DNA of 64,000 nt from the human T2T-CHM13v2.0 reference genome, Homo sapiens. Below are positions 19,220 to 43,755 of the stretch, piece by piece. The stretch lies in the NCBI RefSeq assembly GCF_009914755.1, contig NC_060930.1; one strand, written 5' to 3'. Made by a program: the position numbers and the translations under genes. Position 1 is the first letter of the stretch. Every line of letters starts with the position of its first letter. The notes beneath the pieces were generated by a model that was not told where the DNA came from, made no database searches, and saw only the letters and a list, made by a program, of their open reading frames with translations.

Positions 19220-19628
19220 TTTCATGCGCGTCCATGTGAAGAGACCACCAAACAGGCTTTGTGTGAGCAATAAAGCTGTTTATTTCACCTGGGTGCAGGT
19301 GGGCTGAGTCCGAAAAGAGAGTCAGCAAAGGGAGATAGGGGTGGGACCGTTTTATAGGATTTGGGTAGGTAAAGGAAAATTACAAAGGGGGGTTGTTCTC
19401 TGACGGGCAGAGTGGGGGTCACAAGGTACTCAGTGGGGGAGCTTTTGAGCCAGGATGAGCCAGGAGAAGGAATTTCACAAGACAATGTCATCAGTTAAGG
19501 CAGGAACAGGCCATTTTCACTTCTTTTGTGGTGGAATGTTATCAGTTAAGGCAGGAACCAGCCATCTGGATGTGTACATGCAGGTCACAGGGGATATGAT
19601 GGCTTAGCTTGGGCTCAGAGGCCTGACA
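19220..19628 (-). promoter_or_regulatory. HERV-H 3' LTR (LTR7), 409 bp
   Basis: Minus strand begins TGTCAGGCCTCTGAGCCCAAGC and ends CATGAAA; intact TATAAAA at 19350-19356; AATAAA polyA signal; PPT agaagacaggaa adjacent (19629-19640). Confidence 0.97.
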
Positions 19629-22743: not shown

Positions 22744-23709
22744 CTTGAAGGTGAGGTTAATTAAATCCTTTTGTGGGGTTTGAGGGCTGGAATTTAATTT
22801 TTGGAGTTTTATTTAATGTCGGGAGCAGATTGGGTAATAAAATGTATTTTGAGAATAAGACGGCCTTTTGGCCTTTTAGGGTCTAGGGCTGTGAAATGTC
22901 TCAGGGTTGCTGCCAAAAGAGTCATGAACTGGGCTGGATTTTTATATGTGATGAAAAAGCCTAAACGCTATCTGATTTGGGATAAAGAAAAAGGAGCATT
23001 AACCTTGACTATGCCTTTAGCTCCAGCCACCTTTTTAAGAGTAAATTGCTGGGCAGGTGGGGGAGGGCTAGTCACGGAATGAAACTGTAAGCCGGACCAG
23101 GTGTGAGGAGGGGAGGTGATAAAGGATTATAGGGTGGAGGAGCGGAGGCTGAGGAAGAATTGGGACCTAGCTGGGCCTGGTGAGGAGCAGCCTGGGGAGG
23201 AAGGGAGAGGTCAGATGGGTCTGTAGAAAAGGAAGATTAGAAAGACTCAGTGATGCTTGGGGTTGGGACTGAGGGGACAGGTGGGAGGGAAAGAAGGAAG
23301 ATTTGGGATGAGTTGCATTGGGAACAGAGACTAGAGAGGGACCAATGTGTAAAAGAATGCCTGGACATCAGGCACCTCAGACCATTTGCCCATTTTACAA
23401 CAAGAATTATTTAGATCTTGCAGGATGGAAAAATTGAAAGTGCCGTTTTCTGGCTATGTGGAACTACTGTTGAGTTTGTATTGGGGTCAAGCGGCATTGC
23501 AGAAGAAAATAAGATGCTTAGATTTTAGGTCAGGTGAGAGTTGAAGAGGTTTTAAGTTCTTAAGAACACAGGCTAAGGGAAAAGAAGGAGGAATGGAGGG
23601 TGGAAGGTTGCCCATAGTGAAGGAGGCAAGCCCAGAGAAAGGAGAGAGTAGAGACACGGAGGGAAGGGGTTCGGGGGTTCTTACCCTCCAGAAAAGTGGG
23701 AAAGGGGTC

Positions 23710-23908
23710 AGGGCACAGAGATATGAGGTCGGGGCATGGAAATAAGGGATTGGGGCACAGATATATAAGAGGTTGTGGTGCGGAAATAAGGGATCGGGGT
23801 GCAGAGATATAAGAGGTTGGGGTGTGGAAATAAGGGATTGGGGCGCAGAGATATAAGGGGTCGGGGCATGGAAATAAGGGATCAGGGCACAGAGATACGA
23901 GGTTGGGG
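23710..23908. repeat. ~44-bp dimeric tandem repeat (about 4.5 copies) in the HERV-H leader
   Basis: Alternating ggggcacagagatataagaggtt and ggggcatggaaataagggatt units. Confidence 0.9.
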
Positions 23909-24373
23909 TACTTGCCCCTCCTCTAGAAAAGTGGGACTTGCCGCTAAGGGTGAAGGACCAAGGCAGGTGTCCCTGTGTGGTCTGACACCTCTGAAACGTG
24001 GGTGAATAATCAGAGAGGCGTCCCTGCAATGATTAAACACCAAGAAAAGGCTGCCTTCCCAGTCCGTGACCGGCGCCGGAGTTTTGGGTCCACAGATAAA
24101 ACGTGTCTCCTTTGTCTCTACCAGAAAATGAAAGGAATTGAAATTAAAAGAAGGGAGAGATTGAAGTGTGGCGCCAAGATTGAAAGGAGAAAGAGGTTGA
24201 GGGATAGTGAGGGAGGCTGGAGAAGAGAGTAAAAAGAGGCCACTTACTGGATTTGAAATTAGTGAGATGTTTCTTGGGCTGGTCGGTCTGAGGACTTGAG
24301 GTCGTAGGTGGACCTTTCTCACGGAGCAAAGAGCAGGAGGACAGGGGATTGATCTCCCAAGGGAGGTCCCCCG

Positions 24374-24393: not shown

Positions 24394-24806
24394 TTTCATG
24401 TGCGTCCATGTGAAGAGACCACCAAACAGGCTTTGTGTGAGCAATAAAGCTGTTTATTTCACCTGGGTGCAGGTGGGCTGAGTCTGAAAAGAGAGTCAGC
24501 AAAGGGACATAGGGGTGGGACTGTTTTACAGGATTTGGGTAGGTAAAGGAAAATTACAGTCAAAGGGGGGTTGTTCTCTGGCAGGCAGAGTGGGGGTCAC
24601 AAGGTACTCAGTGGGAGAGCTTTTGAGCCAGGATGAGCCAGGAGAAGGAATTTCACAAGACAATGTCATCAGTTAAGGCAGGAACAGGCCATTTTCACTT
24701 CTTTTGTGGTGGAATGTTATCAGTTAAGGCAGGAACCGGCCATCTGGATGTGTACATGCAGGTCACAGGGGATATGATGGCTTAGCTTGGGCTCAGAGGC
24801 CTGACA
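24394..24806 (-). promoter_or_regulatory. HERV-H 5' LTR (LTR7), 413 bp
   Basis: Matches the 3' LTR except 9 substitutions and one 4-bp indel (manual count); ACAAAAGA motif at 24700-24707; TATA reads TGTAAAA at 24524-24530. Confidence 0.97.
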
Positions 24807-30413: not shown

Positions 30414-30500
30414 GTGTATATGCATATGTGTGTGTATATATATGTGTATATATATGTTATGTGTGTGTATATATGTGTGTGTGTGTATATATACACACAC
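30414..30500. repeat. Mixed (TG)/(TA)/(CA) microsatellite
   Basis: Alternating purine-pyrimidine tract. Confidence 0.9.
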
Positions 30501-31856: not shown

Positions 31857-32720
31857 TGTTGGAAGAGGCAATCTGCCATGGGCCTTGAGCTTCCTCTGCT
31901 TCTTCTTGCTGAGAAGGCCAAGAATGCGAAGCCCCGACTATGCTCTTCCCTGTATCAGTTCTGAGTTGTGCTTGCAGTGAGCGACCTTGTGGAATGGGGT
32001 AATGTCTATCTTCAGTTCCAGGGCAAGCTTCCTTCCACTAACAATAAGAAAAACCATAGAGCCTCACAATTGGTAGTTCTCTCCAAGAATGCAACCCACT
32101 GCACATGTAGGCATATAGTATGGGTCCTGTTATGGACTGAATTCTGACCCCCAAAATTCATATGTTGAAGCCCTGACTCCCAGTGCGATTGTTTCTGGAG
32201 ATAGGGTTTTTAGGAATTAATTAAGATTAGATGAGGTCATAAAAGTGGGACCCTAATCCCCAAGGACTGTGGCCTTATACGAAGAAGAAGAAGAGATCTA
32301 TCTTTTTGTCCTCTCAAGAAGGCAGGAAGTGAGCCCTGTCCAGCCATAGACTCTGCTAGTACCTTGATCTTGGACTTCCTATCCTCCTGAACTGTGAGAA
32401 AATAAATTTCTGTTGTTTTAATCACCTCAGCCTCTGATGTTTTCTTATGGCAGCCTGAGCTAATATAAGCTTTTTGTGTTGCTCTTATGGTTTTGAGCAG
32501 AAGTATGGGGAACTGCCACAAACATAAATGTCTAACTACTGCTTTTGTTGTTTAATAGAGGCTTTTGTCTGTTGCTCAGGACTCTCATCTCTTTTGCCAG
32601 GACCCTTGAAATAGTAACAGGCTAACTTGCTGGCTTATAAGTAGAATAAAACCTTAGAATGTTTACATTGCTTGACTCTAGCCCGCTCTCAGCCTAAAAT
32701 CACCAGCAGCTAGCCACTGT
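31857..32720 (+). mobile_element. Old LTR remnant (ERVL-like, family uncertain) split by an MLT1
   Basis: Starts tgttggaagaggcaatctgccatggg; aataaa at ~32645; continues either side of the MLT1. Confidence 0.4.
32128..32466 (+). mobile_element. MLT1A-like MaLR LTR
   Basis: tgttatggactgaatt...aaattcatatgttgaagccct...accttgatcttggacttcc...gtgagaaaataaatttctgttgttt. Confidence 0.9.
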
Positions 32721-35540
32721 TAATGATGATGATGATGGTGGTGGTGATGGTGAGGATAGTGATGGTAGCTCCTCCTGCTTCTGTAGCTATGACTATGACC
32801 TGTTTATGTACTAGATACCCAACACTTTGTATATATTATCCTAACAACAACTCAATGATCCTAACAACAACTCAATCAAGTTGCTAACGTGAATTAAGGG
32901 GAATTAATGAATTTGATTTATATTTTTAAAAGATTATTCTAACTGCCGTTAGAATGGGCAAAGGGGTCAGAGTAAAGCTAATACCTGCTGTAATAGTCTG
33001 TGGAAGACATAATAGAAGCTCCAACTTGTGCTTTGTCTACAATAGAAACTATACTGCATCTTAATCTGTTAGTGGTTTTAAAATAAATATTTGTGAGATG
33101 CTTATAGTCCAGTTACAACACAGAAAATGCAATACTACTCAATATTATTCTACTCATTTTGTTGTTTCAGGTTCCATAATTTATTTATCTTTCTTTATCC
33201 ACTAATTTCACACAAATCAAAGAAAGTAAAGGTTTAACAATTGTATGTCCAAAGCTCAAACTTTTATTCTCAAGCACTGTCCAGAAGTATCTAAAAGACA
33301 TTCACCTCAAGTTGTAGCTAGCTTTACAGAATGAAATCTGAATCCTTCAGAAGTCTTTTCATTATGGTGACCTACATTAAGTAGTAATAAGGGTAATCAA
33401 ATTGGAATATTTTTATCATAGAAATATACTTTCAGACCTTTAAAATATTCTTTTAAGGATTTATTCATTTCCAAAATGTATTTATAACACATTATTGGCT
33501 TATGCTATGTTTATGTCAGAAAACAGCTTTAATTTTACATCTTTCCTCAGGAATCAGCTATGGCCAAACCTGGTCTCTTTTCTCTCAAGCTGGCTAGATT
33601 TTCCCCTCTTGTCACATTGTTCTCATAGAGGCTATAGAAAATGAATGAGTCTCTGGCTTTCACTTCCTCACACTTCCTCAGGTTAAAAGGTTATGGTAAT
33701 CTCTATTTATAAATGGCTGTTTTCTGTTCTTCTCTTGTGCTCATAAGAAGGCAGCAATAGATACTTACAAAGTCACCTGCCCAAGAGGGCTTTGACTGGC
33801 TCTTGTAAATTCTTTCCTTTAGCTTTCTAGGAGCCCCCCAACCCTGGCTCCCTTGTTTGCCTCCCACATTAGTACCGCATAGTTTAATACTCAAGTGTAA
33901 GGCTCTTTGAATCAACCACCTGCTCTCTATGACTTGTACACCAAATTTTGCTAAGAACATGCTGTCTCTGTAGTGTTTTGTTTTGTTTTAAATTGCTTTT
34001 TAGGGAGATGTGTTTGCAGCACTACAAGAAATCTGTAGAAAAGTTTAGCGAAGAACAGAGAGTAGAACAAACTATTCATTCTGTTATTGTTCTGAAACAT
34101 GTCACCAGATACTGAATAATAAATGCCAAAAAAAACCTAAAATTTTAAGTGAAAGAAAAAAACTCTTCTTGAAAACTGTGCCAACTTCTAGAAGAAAATT
34201 ATTTACTAATTGCATTTTCTATTTATACATGTTATGGGATTAAAGATGCCGCAATGTTTTTATAAAAATTACTTTAATAAATTGCCTAAAAAATAGTTGG
34301 AGCTAATGTGGCCAAAATCATGTTGCTTTATTTATGGTTTACTCATTTTTATTTGCTTATATTTTAAGCTGTTTGAAGACATTGATCATGTTTTCTTGTG
34401 GTCTGTAGCTTGATGGGACTCTAGTTATTTTGAATGTTTATTAGTTATTGATTCACCATGATCTGATAACCAATTCCAATTTAACTCCTTGTTCTGGCTG
34501 TTCTTTTTATTATTCTCTTTTCTGGAAGCCTGTCTAAAAACCAGGTCTGAAGTCGTTATTCATAAGTAGTCAGTCTCTGTGCTCAGATTATCTGCATTAA
34601 AAGATCAATAGGACGTGGCCCCAGGACAGTCGACTATACTATTTCATTAACATAGTAACAAGATGGGAGGCTAATAATAATATTGCCTTGCTAATAGGTT
34701 TAAAGGGAAAATTAATTAGTTGATACTTGCAAAGATAATCTACATAGTCTAGCTTTTTTCCTTCACAGAAATGCACACATCATAAAGGAAACCCAAACAT
34801 TGTTATATACCACAAGCCAATGTCAGATTTTAAAAGCTAAGATATTCAATCTGAAGTTATCTGTCATATTTTTAATGAATAATTCAACATTTAACCCATT
34901 AATATTAACCTTTTCATTTTAAATACAGCCCAATGTCAAATATATATCAAAAAAACCTTTAGACTTAGTATGCCCTTTGACCAGAACCTCAGCTTCTAGA
35001 AATTCATTCAATGAAAATCATAATGAATATGTGCAAAGGTCTAATGAAAAGAATATAGATTAAAAACTGTATTTAGAATAGTGAAAAATAAACAAATGTT
35101 CAAAAGCAGGGGAAAAGCTAGGTAACTTATATAACAGTAAAAAATTCAAATACTCTGCCACCATTATGAAATTATATGATGGAAGAATATTTTCTTCTAC
35201 AAAAACAGCTTCTACATATTGTTAATAAAAATGTTTATGATAAATCTGATCCCTTTAAAATATGTCAAGTGATATGTAGAGTCCATTTTAAAATATACTA
35301 ACAAAAACAGAAAGAGAGAAGATAAAGAAGTAAATGTTAAAAAAATGATACTTGGAGCTGAGTGATGATCACAGAGGGTTTATTACACTATCCTTTCTTC
35401 TTCTCTGCATAGTTTAACATAAATTTACATAATACACAGTTAAATTTTTAAGAAATGCCTTAATTTCTGCTTAGAAACAACTAGAGGTGCCTTTGTTTAG
35501 AAAGAAAACCAAATACCTGTTTTTGCGTAATTTTAAAGTG

Positions 35541-35548
<8 letters not shown>

Positions 35549-35585
<37 letters not shown>

Positions 35586-35596
35586 GTGTGTGTATG
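35549..35596. repeat. (TG)n microsatellite
   Basis: ~17 perfect TG units plus degenerate flank. Confidence 0.95.
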
Positions 35597-35936
35597 TGTC
35601 AATCTAGAAGGGGAAAACTGTCAGCCAATCACAGTACTGTCCAATTTAACACTTGTAATAACTACCTGCACAAGAGCACAGAGGGCTAGGCAGTTAATTT
35701 TACTGAAAGATATTCAAGACATGAAATGAAAGAAAGTTTATTCAAATGATAAAAATAGTATTGCTGAGACAGCCAATGAGTTATGTAATGAATGGAGGTA
35801 GCTGCAAAACTTTGGTGAGAACTCATAGGTTAAATTTGAATAATTATCTGTATCCAAGGTCACCTACAACAGATTTCAACTCTATTTACACACTTTAGGC
35901 AGAAAAATGTGAAATTCAGAAATGAAATTTAAATAA
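35597..35936 (+). repeat. Left arm of a 340-bp inverted repeat
   Basis: Reverse complement of 37172-37511 with 20 substitutions and no indels. Confidence 0.97.
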
Positions 35937-37171
35937 ATTAAATATGTACACACACATACACACATATACATGTGTGTGCATATAAGTATGTATGTGTGTT
36001 TACTAGAATATGATAGGACTATTCATAAACTTTAACTTATGATCTTCCATATTTAAAAACAATTCTGCAGTCAACATTTATTACCTTTAGAATTTGAAAA
36101 AAATAATAATGATTATAAAAAAGTATAAATCCTGGTAACAAATTTTATTTCTACAGTATATAGAGACTTTAAATGTGTAAACCTTTAGTTTACCCATTAC
36201 CCAAATAGTTAGAGATCAATGAATTTATTTATAATACGGGATTTTAATAAACAATCTTTTCAGCAATTTGTGAATATGCTTCATTGATTGTGGAATCAAT
36301 AGGCTATTTCTAATGAATCTGGCATGTTAATGAATAATGGTTTGATCCAAATATTACATTCAAAGCAGTGAGACATTTATATTCCAGCAGGCAAGATCAT
36401 TTAAACCATTTAAACCCTGATTAGTTAACAGGCTGTATTCATGAGAAAGGTGTATTGATTTCAGTGGCTTTATTGATTTTAGGTCTGTTGAACCTAGACA
36501 CCTTGCAAATTTGTGGGCTGACTTCATTGACTACATTTCGATCTAATATATAGTTGTTTTTAGAAAGTGCTGTAAAAAGTTTCTGGCATCTGACCTTCGC
36601 TATATGGGATTATTAACCTGTAACTTTTTATTATTTTCAGATGCCTTTCATAGAGGAATGATAAAATCATTAATTTTAGCTTCTGTTATGTACAAAGGGT
36701 AAAGCATAAGTTAGGTACTGTTGAAAATTCAACTATTTAAAAAACATTATCCCTAAGAATTTGTTTGTGATTACAACCTTCTACATGAGAGTTGATTAAA
36801 AGAACCTAAGTCAAGCTGTTCTTCCACAGTGCTCTCTGACCACAGTGGCTTACCTGGCAAAAGGCAATAAAATATTAGAATAACATGGATCTGATGACTA
36901 TTTTTCTTTAAATTAACAGTATTTAATAATCATTTATATTTTATGTGATTATTTTAACTCTCAAATCAAATTTGCTGAGTTTTCTATAATGTTTTGATTC
37001 TAAATCTTTTGATAAGAATTCAATTTAAATTTGTCATATAGTTCAAGAGAAAAAAACTAATTCTGCTCTTATTATTTACTATATTGTGAATAACATGAAG
37101 TCTTCAAAAATTGGAAAAATAATTGTCTCACAAGTCATTTAATTACAGTTATCTAGAGTGATTAATGCAGA

Positions 37172-37511
37172 TTATTTAAATTTCACTTCTGGATTTCTCA
37201 TTTTTCTGCCTAAAATGTGTAAATAGAGTTGAAATCTGTTTTAAGTGACCTTGGATGTAGATAATTATTCAAATTTAAGCTATGAGTTCTCGCCAAAGTT
37301 TTGCATCTACCTCCATTCATTACATAACTCACTGGCTATCTCAGCAGTATTATTTTTATCATTTGAATAAACTTTCTTTCATTTCATGTCTTGAATATCT
37401 TTCAGTAAAATTAATTGCCTAGCCCTCTGTGCTCTTGTGCAAGTAGTTAATACAAGTGTTAAATTGGACAGTACTGTGATTGGCTGATAGATTTCCCCTT
37501 CTAGATTGACA
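37172..37511 (-). repeat. Right arm of a 340-bp inverted repeat
   Basis: e.g. gcctagccctctgtgctcttgtgc (37417-37440) is the reverse complement of gcacaagagcacagagggctaggc (35668-35691). Confidence 0.97.
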
Positions 37512-37929
37512 TAGATCCATGAATCAATTCAATCATGAAATAAAGACAGAAAAAACAAACAAACAAACATCTATTGACAGCCTAACATATGCCAGGGGTG
37601 CTTGCTAGATGATTAGCTTAGCAGCTATGGGCTTCAATGTTGGATTTTATTACCTGAGTCAGAATTCTTTATTTGCCAGTCACCAGCTGTTTGACCAATG
37701 ATTTAACTTTTCTATTCATTGTTCTCTTGAATGTAAAATGTTTAACTACTAGTTTCAAGTAACTGCTTTTAGGATATTTTTTACAACTAAATGAATTAAT
37801 ATATCTGAACCATTAGAAGAGCATCAATTATGTAAATCTCCCAATATACCAGCTATTGATATTTCATACTTCCCAGAATTTACAGTATTTTATTATTTAA
37901 ATATTGTTTGATTTGGTTATTTTTAAGTT

Positions 37930-40470
37930 ATGTTTATATCTTATGCACTGTCAAAGAATAATACAAAAGATCATGCAATGGAAAGAGAAACTCACTCTCC
38001 TCTCCGGTCCATGGTCCTAAGTCTCCAGAGATAAATAGCCATCTCTGGTTCTGTGGGCATAGTTTCACACATATTCCATGCATATACATGTATATACTTC
38101 CTCTTTTCTCTTTAATACAAATCAGCACATGCTAATAGAAACTGGCCTATACCTTACCCTTGTTTCACTTAATATATTTTGACAGTTTTATATTTCACTA
38201 AATATAGGAGAAGCTCATTCATTTTGACAGTGGCCTTGTGTAAACATAACCAGTCTCTTCATTCATAGATTCTAAGCTGTTTCTTTCTTTTTTTAAATCA
38301 TAATCAATGCTGTGATAATCATGTACATATATAGAATGATTAGATAATGTTTATATGTGTGTGTTTGTACACACACATATTCAAATACACATATATATTG
38401 ACATACACACATCTATTCACACAGATATATTCAAATATGTGTAAACACACACATATACTGTGTGTGTGTTTATTTTAATGCATGGATAAATATATCTGTT
38501 GAACAAATTCATGCAATTAGATTTTCTAGTTCAAAGAGGAATGTATTTTAAATGTTTTATAGATATTCTTAACCTGCTGTACATACTAATTTTGCCAATA
38601 TACGTTTTCAACAGAGTATGTGCTTATATGTGATTCACCACATAATCATCAACACAGTCATTTAATTTCCATATCTGTGAAAGGATGTATCTCACTATTT
38701 GCTTGGCATGATCCATTGCATCTTAGGAGTTTACTTACTTTTTTTGCCTTCTTTTAAAAAATTAATATATTAGAAAATTTCATTTTAATAGTATATCCTT
38801 ATCTTAGCTATTTTGCTCAGTTTCTTGTTTATATTTTATGATTTCTGTTATAATAGTTGGTTTTTCAAAGGCTTTTAGATTTTATGCAGTTAAATGTAAT
38901 TTTGTATGGCTTCTGGATCCATAGGCATTTCTAAAATAATTTCTCATGTTTACCTTAGCACATTTTCAATTTTATATTTTATATTTAAGTATTTTATTCA
39001 TGAAAAAGTTATTTTGATATACATTATAAGTTAAGAATCAAGATTTTAGTTCCTAAATAAAAAGCTCAGTCAACTCAAAAGAGTTTGTTAAATTAATCTT
39101 ATTGTTGCACTGCTTTAAAATGTTATTTTGATTATTTATTAAATATTTAAATATTTGTGCTTTTCTTTATTCTGTTCAAGTACTCTGTTTCTTCTTGTGC
39201 CAGTGCCACAGTTTTAGAATTGCTATAGCTCTTTACATTATGATGCATAATTGAATTAGTCCCCATTCATTACTCATCATTTTTCAAAGTTTTCCTAATT
39301 ATTCTCAAACAAATCTTAGTGTTAGCTTTGTTATCTTTCCAAAAAATGCTGCTGACTTTTTAATTGAGATTTTATAAAAGTATATTCTTTATTTTTAATA
39401 GGATTCATTAGTCTAATACATAGAAAATATAACTATTTTTAGTTTCTATGTAGAAAAGCAGTTTATTTTTACAGATTAATTTCATATTCAGCCTCCATCA
39501 TACTGAAACTTACTGTAGTTTCTAAGACTTTTTAAAGCTAATTTATAAATGTTTTCCAGGTATAAAATCATAAAATCTTCTAAAATGATAGTCTTCCTCT
39601 TGTTTTTCAGTTTTTACACTTATATTTTATTCTACTCTCCAGTTAAATTTTCTAATATTTGTGTTATAATGTTAAACAGTAGTGGTCCTAATGACATATT
39701 TTTATTGTTTCTGATTTTAATGCCACTTAGACAAATGGTCCTCAAACTTTAGCATGGAACAGTTCATACAAAGGGCTTGTTAAAACACAGATTGTTGCTC
39801 TCCACACCAGTCTTGATTCTGTAGGTGTGGGATGGGGGCAAAGCATATATATTTCCAACACGTTCTCAGGTGCATCTGACACACTCGGAACAAGGCCCCA
39901 CTTTGAGAACTACCATATGTTATCAGGCTCTTTAGTATAAAGCTGACTTTTGCTTCAAAATATCATGTACTTTTGATAATGTTAAGTGACCCTTTATTCT
40001 TTTTTATTAAGAGTTTTGTCAGAAATGAATGTGGGAGTTTTTCAAATGACTTCTGGGAATTCATAGAGCTGACAATATTGTTTTATTTCCTTTTCCTATT
40101 AACGTGATAAATTTCAATAATAGCTGTCCTAATACTGTAAAACCTTAGCATGCAATAAATTTGATAATGGCATTTTGCATTTTAATATGTTACTACTACA
40201 TTATAATTGACACTGTGAAGTTTTTTGTAAATGTCATTGAGTTTTCATTACTATATTTTTCTGCATTGTATATTGATGTTAAAAATCATTCCATAAATAT
40301 AATTTGAAATATTTTCTTCTCTACATATGTTCTAGAAGTAAAGTTATCATAGTAAAGTTATCAGTTTCTTGATGTTTTGATAGATTTCACTAAAGACATT
40401 TTTAGGATTGGCATTCTTTGTTATTTTCTTTTGTAGGTAAATACTGATAATTTTTACTTTTCTTAAAAAA
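37930..40470 (-). mobile_element. Very old L1 (L1ME-like), antisense, fragmented
   Basis: T-rich with ttttccaggtataaaatcat, gagttttgtcagaaatgaatgtg; interrupted by MER5A. Confidence 0.65.
39731..39913. mobile_element. MER5A (hAT-Charlie MITE)
   Basis: tggtcctcaaactttagcatg...gggcttgttaaaacacagattg...cactttgagaactac. Confidence 0.85.
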
Positions 40471-40487
40471 CCAATTGCTTTAGCAAT

Positions 40488-43755
<3,268 letters not shown>

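What the first reader, a model, noticed from the sequence alone, without database searches (positions are those of the whole stretch)
35597..37511. 340-bp inverted repeat of unique-looking DNA enclosing a 1.2-kb spacer: candidate invertible cassette or long RNA stem
Seen: the arms 35597-35936 and 37172-37511 align as reverse complements with 20 substitutions (14 transitions, 6 transversions) and no indels (~94%); the spacer is 1235 bp; I recognise neither arm as Alu, L1, LTR or MER. Established: close inverted repeats mediate recurrent inversion by NAHR, can be homogenised by gene conversion, and when transcribed form dsRNA that drives ADAR editing, back-splicing or exon skipping. Inference: either a primate-era inverted duplication or an older pair kept similar by conversion, making the spacer a flippable unit. 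Wobble-compatible mismatches are split 8 (+ strand) to 6 (- strand), so there is no evidence from the arms alone for selection on an RNA stem.
Basis: partly seen in the sequence, partly recalled or inferred. Interest (0 to 1): 0.8.

Follow-up and report, generated by a model that had tools for sequence, protein, structure and literature searches.

The report
Small inverted duplication of unique DNA
A 340-base stretch of single-copy human DNA sits twice, head to head, around a 1.2-kb spacer in a gene desert on chromosome 6; it is most likely the harmless scar of one old rearrangement, not a mobile element, a switch or an RNA gene.

Summary
Arms 35597-35936 and 37172-37511 are reverse complements: 340 nt, 20 substitutions (14 transitions, 6 transversions), no indels, 1235-nt spacer.

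Arms, spacer and both flanks are single-copy in the 3.1-Gb assembly. The same search found thousands of candidates for young repeats and old repeats at 66-80% identity. So this is not a transposon family.

- Homology stops sharply at all four ends.
- Mismatches are spaced at random, so there is no sign of a recent conversion tract.
- No Rfam family reaches its cut-off, no ORF exceeds 57 aa and no Pfam family reaches its cut-off.

Best reading: a neutral local inverted duplication made once by break repair or a replication template switch. The K2P distance of 0.062 puts it roughly at the ape/Old World monkey split. Breakpoints lie at TG/CA microsatellites.

It could still support rare spacer inversion. 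I found none in one 65-genome inversion table, and the longest identical tract is 64 nt. An arbitrary 200-kb control block held a similar unique inverted pair, so the class looks ordinary. Cross-species and population tests could not be run. Interest is low.

The parts
35597..35936 (+). Left arm of the inverted repeat (340 nt)
   Evidence: It has only two places in the genome.
37172..37511 (-). Right arm of the inverted repeat (340 nt), reverse complement of the left arm with 20 substitutions
   Evidence: It has only two places in the genome. No dinucleotide array lies within 40 nt of either edge.
35937..37171 (.). 1235-nt single-copy spacer. No ORF exceeds 57 aa, and no Pfam or Rfam family reaches its cut-off.
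   Evidence: besides itself, only microsatellite matches to its first 67 nt..
35549..35599 (.). (TG)n microsatellite, 25.5 copies, abutting the outer edge of the left arm. Its last three bases are the first three of the arm.
   Evidence: TRF; sequence.
35946..36003 (.). Compound, self-complementary (AC)n/(AT)n/(TG)n array 10 nt inside the inner edge of the left arm
   Evidence: 35947-35970; self-inverted 35946-36003; only sub-threshold microsatellite-type miRNA matches.

Best explanation
This is a small local inverted duplication of ordinary single-copy DNA. It was made once by a non-homologous rearrangement and has drifted neutrally since. One 340-nt segment was copied in reverse orientation about 1.2 kb away. 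Two routes give the same present structure. (a) A replication or break-repair template switch (FoSTeS/MMBIR type) copied the segment into a TG/CA microsatellite. (b) The roughly 1.2-1.6 kb segment was inverted through staggered breaks whose fill-in duplicated one breakpoint region at both ends, as in the Drosophila model. In either case the breakpoints lie at TG/CA microsatellites, which are sequences prone to stalling and breakage. Shown: the repeat, its uniqueness, its sharp ends, its neutral-looking substitution pattern and the microsatellites at the left arm. Inferred: the mechanism, the age (about the ape/Old World monkey split) and the lack of present function. Today the pair can at most support rare inversion of the spacer. 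It would form a long double-stranded RNA only if the region were transcribed, and nothing here suggests that it is.
For: Each arm has 2 of 2 scored places in 3.1 Gb, and the spacer only itself plus microsatellite matches. Both flanks, 33500-35540 and 37512-39600, are single-copy apart from a microsatellite. Sensitivity controls with the same tool gave 6991 and 2536 first-look candidates for two roughly 330-nt repeats at 81-90% identity. They gave 4666 and 7072 candidates for old repeats scored at 66-80% identity. Homology ends abruptly at all four edges even at word size 7, as expected of a discrete copied segment. The substitutions look neutral: a ts:tv ratio of 14:6 and 0 or 1 CpG, with random spacing (longest identical tract 64 nt against a mean of 57 under random placement, P=0.27; variance P=0.49). 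Divergence is p=0.059 and K2P=0.062, with a 95% interval of 3.6-8.9%. The left arm is bracketed by a (TG)25 array and a compound AC/TG array, while the right arm has none. TG/AC-type arrays cover roughly 0.6% of the window by my own arithmetic, so two of them at the edges of one arm are unlikely to be chance. This argument is post hoc. Ranz et al. 2007 (PMC1885836, passages read) found inverted duplications of non-repetitive sequence at 17 of 29 inversions. Their median size was 321 bp, and they often came from one breakpoint only, which is the same anatomy as here. An arbitrary 200-kb control block of chromosome 1 held one further genome-unique local inverted pair, so such scars appear common.
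Against: No other species and no other human haplotype could be examined. Age, polarity (which arm is the parent) and the choice between routes (a) and (b) therefore rest on inference. The array on the inner side of the left arm has the opposite strand polarity, (AC)n, to the outer (TG)n and is separated from the arm by 10 nt. The picture of a single split microsatellite is therefore not clean. Zero indels against 20 substitutions is slightly fewer than I would expect for neutral DNA. By my rough estimate from a recalled indel:substitution ratio, about 2 are expected, which gives P about 0.1. Lack of function is argued from absence of evidence: there is no annotated gene, Rfam match or ORF, and expression and editing data were not available.
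Confidence: 0.75

Rival explanations
1. Live invertible unit: the arms still recombine (NAHR), so the 1.2-kb spacer is found in both orientations among people or has flipped repeatedly in primates.
For: [quoted passage not shown] The arms here are 340 nt and close together.
Against: The supplementary file of the 65-genome study (PMC12350169), which includes its inversion table, holds no identifier beginning chr6-1402 or chr6-1414. These prefixes cover my recalled GRCh38 estimate and the T2T coordinates. The file was cut when stored, and very small events may not be genotyped. One search also reports that repeat length is the main driver of recurrence and that 72% of recurrent inversions have repeats of 10 kb or more. 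The smallest repeat among 24 validated NAHR inversions is 654 bp (PMC6748972, passages read). The longest perfect identity here is 64 nt, below the roughly 130-230 nt minimal processing segment I recall for mammalian recombination.
Confidence: 0.1
2. Old inverted pair (pre-primate) kept 94% alike by gene conversion.
For: Close inverted repeats are known to convert. The absence of indels in the arms would fit homogenisation.
Against: Mismatches are spread as expected at random, with no long identical tract. No weaker homology continues beyond the arms, as it would around a converted core of an older and larger duplication.
Confidence: 0.06
3. A single-copy non-autonomous DNA transposon with 340-nt terminal inverted repeats.
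For: The anatomy (long terminal inverted repeats around a 1.2-kb core, 1915 nt in all) resembles a class II element.
Against: There are only 2 places for the arm and 1 for the core in the genome, although the search finds families at 66-80% identity. No target-site duplication is visible: the 8 nt outside the two ends differ. No ORF exceeds 57 aa and there is no transposase-like Pfam match. The arms are less diverged than I would expect for two ends of a human DNA transposon, given my recollection that such activity ended about 37 Myr ago.
Confidence: 0.03
4. A transcribed long hairpin: the arms pair into a roughly 340-bp double-stranded RNA that is edited by ADAR or processed into small RNAs.
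For: If transcribed, either strand would fold with 326-328 of 340 arm positions paired in register. Arm duplex energy is about -525 to -530 kcal/mol.
Against: No gene is annotated in the window (hub table). No Rfam family reaches its cut-off, and the sub-threshold matches are microsatellite-type miRNA models outside the arms. Wobble-compatible mismatches number 8 against 6, which shows no strand bias. Any inverted repeat folds like this, so the fold itself is not evidence.
Confidence: 0.04

Closest known systems
Inverted duplications at inversion breakpoints (staggered-break model; Ranz et al. 2007, PMC1885836)
   Same: An inverted duplication of ancestrally unique, non-repetitive sequence flanks a segment. 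Its size, 340 nt, is close to their median of 321 bp (range 46 bp to 1.9 kb). Only one breakpoint region is duplicated, as in 12 of their 18 cases.
   Different: Their cases flank large Drosophila inversions proven by outgroups. Here the enclosed segment is only 1.2 kb, and whether it was ever inverted is unknown.
Replicative template-switch rearrangements (FoSTeS/MMBIR; Hastings et al. 2009, PMC2621351, search listing only)
   Same: A nearby segment is copied in inverted orientation, with sharp junctions and at most a few bases of shared sequence. The first three bases of the arm continue the TG array.
   Different: Described cases are mostly recent, pathogenic and larger. This one is fixed, old and tiny. 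The junction microhomology cannot be verified without the pre-insertion allele.
Inverted repeats that mediate polymorphic NAHR inversions in humans (PMC6748972; preprint 10.1101/2021.12.20.472354)
   Same: Two inverted copies more than 90% identical flank a unique segment.
   Different: The arms are shorter than the smallest validated case in PMC6748972 (654 bp), and no polymorphism was found in the one table searched.
Segmental duplications and genome-wide maps of intrachromosomal repeats (Fernandez-Luna et al. 2024, PMC11794170)
   Same: The pair meets that map's thresholds of at least 200 bp and at least 80% identity. The map lists 627,791 inverted pairs in T2T-CHM13.
   Different: It is below the classical segmental-duplication length of 1 kb. 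The pair lists themselves are not in the one small spreadsheet held, which I did not open, so I could not confirm that this pair is listed.
Short template-switch microinversions between human and chimpanzee (PMC8755829)
   Same: These are local, inverted and copied precisely, and they are tied to inverted repeats.
   Different: They are 17-33 nt long with 3-75-nt flanking repeats, an order of magnitude smaller.

Membership tests
Class II (DNA) transposon with terminal inverted repeats | Belongs to a family with several copies in the genome | tested here: not met
   The arm has 2 places and the core 1 place in 3.1 Gb. Controls found families at 66-90% identity.
Class II (DNA) transposon with terminal inverted repeats | Target-site duplication directly outside both ends | tested here: not met
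   The flanks read differ. The left flank is a microsatellite that could have erased a duplication, so this is not decisive on its own.
Class II (DNA) transposon with terminal inverted repeats | Transposase gene or its remnants in the core (autonomous forms) | tested here: not met
   The longest stop-to-stop frame is 57 aa. In 12 of 12 frames scanned, no Pfam family reached its cut-off.
Segmental duplication (classical definition) | At least 1 kb long and at least 90% identical | tested here: not met
   Identity is 94% but length is 340 nt, with no extension.
Inverted-repeat-mediated (NAHR) polymorphic inversion locus | [quoted passage not shown] | tested here: met
   340-nt arms; the threshold is the one used.
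Inverted-repeat-mediated (NAHR) polymorphic inversion locus | Both orientations of the enclosed segment seen among haplotypes or species | tested here: inconclusive
   No entry in the supplementary file of PMC12350169, but that file was cut when stored. The Cell 2022 paper is not held. No haplotypes or other species could be read.
Inversion-coupled inverted duplication (staggered breaks) | Inverted duplication of non-repetitive sequence at the two ends of one segment, tens of bp to about 2 kb | tested here: met
   compared.
Inversion-coupled inverted duplication (staggered breaks) | Outgroup has one copy and the enclosed segment in the opposite orientation | not testable with these tools
   No primate or other vertebrate genome is held.
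Structured RNA gene (miRNA or long hairpin RNA) | Match to a curated RNA family, or substitutions biased to keep pairing on one strand | tested here: not met
   No Rfam match reaches its gathering score. Wobble-compatible changes number 8 against 6.
Structured RNA gene (miRNA or long hairpin RNA) | Evidence of transcription | not testable with these tools
   No expression data are available. The hub table lists no gene in the window.

The most novel reading that the evidence does not exclude
The pair is a working micro-switch. The 1.2-kb single-copy spacer lies in the middle of an 8-kb stretch free of interspersed repeats in a gene desert. It could carry an orientation-sensitive regulatory element that has toggled between orientations in primates or people through recombination between the arms. 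Alternatively, the unit could be transcribed in some tissue into a roughly 340-bp near-perfect double-stranded RNA of non-repeat origin.
Probability: 0.04. Interest if true: 0.6.

Novelty: new member of a known kind. Interest (0 to 1): 0.15.

Why it matters
On its own it matters little. It is one more small, fixed inverted duplication in non-coding DNA. It has some modest uses. It is a clean example, with both junctions intact and no transposon involved, of how unique-sequence inverted repeats arise at microsatellites in the human lineage. Such scars can polarise small ancient inversions, as they do in Drosophila. The arbitrary control block suggests that pairs of this kind may be frequent, so a genome-wide count of non-transposon local inverted pairs would be more informative than this single locus.

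Tried and rejected
- **Transposon reading:** rejected on copy number, the missing target-site duplication and the lack of protein remnants.
- **Retrocopy of a local transcript:** I considered this because an AATAAA motif spans the inner end of the left arm and is followed by A/T-rich and AC-repeat sequence. I set it aside because a retrocopy landing 1.2 kb from its source would be an extreme coincidence. The last A of the motif also lies outside the homology.
- **Two independent insertions of one repeat:** rejected because the arms are co-terminal, ungapped and unique.
- **Gene conversion:** no tract signal.
- **Rfam:** the only matches are low-scoring microsatellite-type miRNA models at 35930-36009 and 38346-38499, plus one weak scaRNA match across the TG array. 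All fall far below their gathering scores.
- **Base-rate survey of 1-2 Mb of random genome:** only one 200-kb block could be fetched.
- **Population inversion catalogues:** only the supplement of PMC12350169 could be searched. The Cell 2022 inversion paper is not held and the supplements of its preprint are closed. Supplements are not held for papers added after August 2026, and I did not request those of the 2026 ultralong-read study (PMC13629690). These unseen tables could bear on whether the spacer is polymorphic.
- **Repeat map of PMC11794170:** the one spreadsheet held (182 kB) is too small to contain the pair lists, and I did not open it.

Full report
**1. The observation**

The repeat finder gives arms 35597-35936 and 37172-37511, 340 nt, 94% complementary, 1235 nt apart. 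My own count gives 20 mismatches, 14 transitions and 6 transversions, and no indels. Arm G+C is 32-33%, with 0 and 1 CpG.

A sensitive self-comparison of 34000-39500 (blastn, word 7) returns the same ungapped alignment (E 5e-123). It finds nothing beyond any of the four arm ends. A 340-nt match at 94% cannot arise by chance.

In the whole window it is the only inverted pair above 91% identity. The remaining pairs of about 300 nt are 75-90% identical members of one abundant family, and there is one direct LTR-like pair.

**2. It is not a repeat family**

The assembly that holds the window (3.1 Gb, 24 contigs) could be searched.
- Each arm finds two places, itself and its partner, and the loose first look found only those two candidates.
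- The spacer finds itself plus five short microsatellite-type places, seven alignments in all, matching its first 67 nt.
- The flank 33500-35540 finds only itself.
- The flank 37512-39600 finds itself plus matches confined to a compound microsatellite and one short 51-nt match.

The search is sensitive enough for this to mean something.
- Two repeats of about 330 nt from the same window gave 6991 and 2536 first-look candidates, with copies at 81-90% identity.
- Two old repeats, at about 32119-32467 and from 40486 on, gave 4666 and 7072 candidates, scored at 66-80% identity.

The arms are therefore not members of any family that the tool can see down to roughly two-thirds identity. The hub's mask list agrees. 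Its shortest listed stretch is 208 nt, and none overlaps the unit.

**3. Other things it is not**

- *Protein-coding.* Stop-to-stop frames in the unit reach at most 57 aa. In 12 of 12 frames scanned, no Pfam family reached its cut-off, so there is no transposase remnant.
- *A transposon insertion.* The bases just outside the two ends differ, so no target-site duplication is visible. The microsatellite on the left could have erased one.
- *A known RNA family.* Rfam at a permissive threshold gives nothing near a gathering score. The 14 weak matches are microsatellite-type miRNA models at 35930-36009 and 38346-38499, plus one weak scaRNA model across the TG array. The miRNA-model matches lie outside the arms. 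The scaRNA match runs 48 nt into the left arm.
- *A selected RNA stem.* If transcribed, either strand would of course fold, with 326-328 of 340 arm positions paired in register. That is true of any inverted repeat. The mismatches that would remain G:U pairs number 8 on one strand and 6 on the other, so there is no strand bias.

**4. What the arms say about history**

The substitution pattern looks neutral, with a ts:tv ratio of 2.3 and almost no CpG. Mismatches are spread as at random. The longest identical tract is 64 nt against a mean of 57 for random placement (P=0.27), and the variance of tract lengths gives P=0.49.

So there is no footprint of a recent conversion tract. There is also no weaker homology around the arms, which would be expected if they were the converted core of an older, larger duplication.

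The distance is p=0.059 and K2P=0.062, with a 95% interval of 3.6-8.9%. I recall human-macaque divergence as about 6.5% and human-orangutan divergence as about 3%. Neither figure comes from a tool. On that basis the duplication dates to about the ape/Old World monkey split, with a range from the great-ape ancestor to early anthropoids. As an internal yardstick, the LTR-like pair in the same window differs by 3.1%, about half as much.

**5. The junctions**

The left arm is bracketed by simple repeats. A (TG)25 array at 35549-35599 runs into the first three bases of the arm. A self-complementary AC/AT/TG array at 35946-36003 starts 10 nt after the arm's inner end. The right arm has no dinucleotide array within 40 nt of either edge.

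TG/AC-type arrays occupy roughly 0.6% of the window by my arithmetic. Two of them at the edges of one arm are therefore unlikely to be chance, although I noticed this after the fact.

I read this as breakage or fork stalling at microsatellites. Two routes give the same present structure.
- (a) A template switch copied the right arm, inverted, into a compound microsatellite.
- (b) An inversion of the arm-plus-spacer segment through staggered breaks was followed by fill-in, which leaves one breakpoint region duplicated in inverted orientation at both ends.

Route (b) is the pattern that Ranz et al. documented for 17 of 29 Drosophila inversions. The duplications there had a median of 321 bp, and in 12 of 18 cases came from one breakpoint only (PMC1885836, passages read). 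In every version I worked through, two of the three breakpoints fall next to a TG/CA array. The arrays therefore support a break-driven origin but do not choose between the routes. Only an outgroup can do that.

**6. Can it flip now?**

It is not excluded.
- npInv reports that repeat length scales with inversion size (PMC6044046, section 10 read).

The evidence against is stronger.
- The same preprint finds repeat length to be the main driver of recurrence, and 72% of recurrent cases have repeats of 10 kb or more.
- The smallest repeat among 24 validated NAHR inversions is 654 bp (PMC6748972, passages read).
- The longest perfect identity here is 64 nt.
- The supplementary file of the 65-genome study holds no identifier beginning chr6-1402 or chr6-1414 (PMC12350169). 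The nearest entry shown was chr6-141865913. The file was cut when stored, and the GRCh38 position I searched is my own estimate from a recalled miRNA coordinate.

This is a weak negative. Other catalogues were out of reach.

**7. How ordinary is it?**

A published map lists 627,791 inverted pairs of at least 200 bp and at least 80% identity in this assembly, mostly transposon pairs (PMC11794170, sections 6 and 7 read). This pair meets those thresholds, but the lists were not available to me.

As a small control I fetched an arbitrary 200-kb block of chromosome 1. It contains one local inverted pair of 186/188 nt, about 91% identical and 791 nt apart. Its arm also has only two places in the genome. 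Still, it suggests that small inverted duplications of unique DNA are not rare.

**8. Verdict**

The feature is best explained as a neutral, fixed, primate-age inverted duplication left by a single break-repair or template-switch event at microsatellites (confidence about 0.75). The rivals rank as follows:
- a still-active invertible unit (0.10);
- an old pair kept alike by conversion (0.06);
- a transcribed hairpin (0.04);
- a single-copy transposon (0.03).

It is a new member of a known kind and of low interest. The decisive tests, orthologous loci across primates and spacer orientation in pangenome haplotypes, are simple but could not be run here.

Noticed in passing
window 19220-19628 and 24394-24806: A direct repeat pair of 413 nt at 96.9% identity bounds a masked element of about 5.6 kb. 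It looks like the two LTRs of an endogenous retrovirus-like insertion, about half as diverged as the inverted-repeat arms. A 44-nt tandem array lies inside it at 23702-23909.
   Followed up: no
window about 32468-40485: The inverted repeat sits in the middle of an 8-kb stretch with no interspersed repeat detectable in the genome search; only microsatellites match elsewhere. Whether this repeat-poor island is conserved non-coding DNA could not be tested.
   Followed up: partly
window 38346-38508, also 35930-36009 and 30414-30492: These are compound, self-complementary TG/TA/CA microsatellites. They give sub-threshold matches to microsatellite-derived miRNA families such as mir-297 and mir-466, with a best score of 39 bits against a cut-off of 90.
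   Followed up: no
G000:C1:50169090-50169275 and 50170067-50170254 (L019:9090-9275, L020:67-254): In an arbitrary control block there is a second genome-unique local inverted pair: 186/188 nt, about 91% identical, one 2-nt indel, spacer 791 nt. The sequence on both sides of its right arm looks L1-like to me, which is recognition from memory and not tested, so its origin may differ.
   Followed up: partly
window 35622-35650 and 35770-35782; partner 37326-37340: The left arm carries three CCAAT motifs, two of them in an AGCCAAT context. In the right arm, one of the three is lost through the mismatch at 35776/37332. No test of binding or promoter activity was possible.
   Followed up: no
window 32119-32467 and 40486-42500: Old interspersed repeats whose copies elsewhere are 66-80% identical, with 4666 and 7072 first-look candidates. 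They are not among the 20 longest masked stretches listed by the hub.
   Followed up: no
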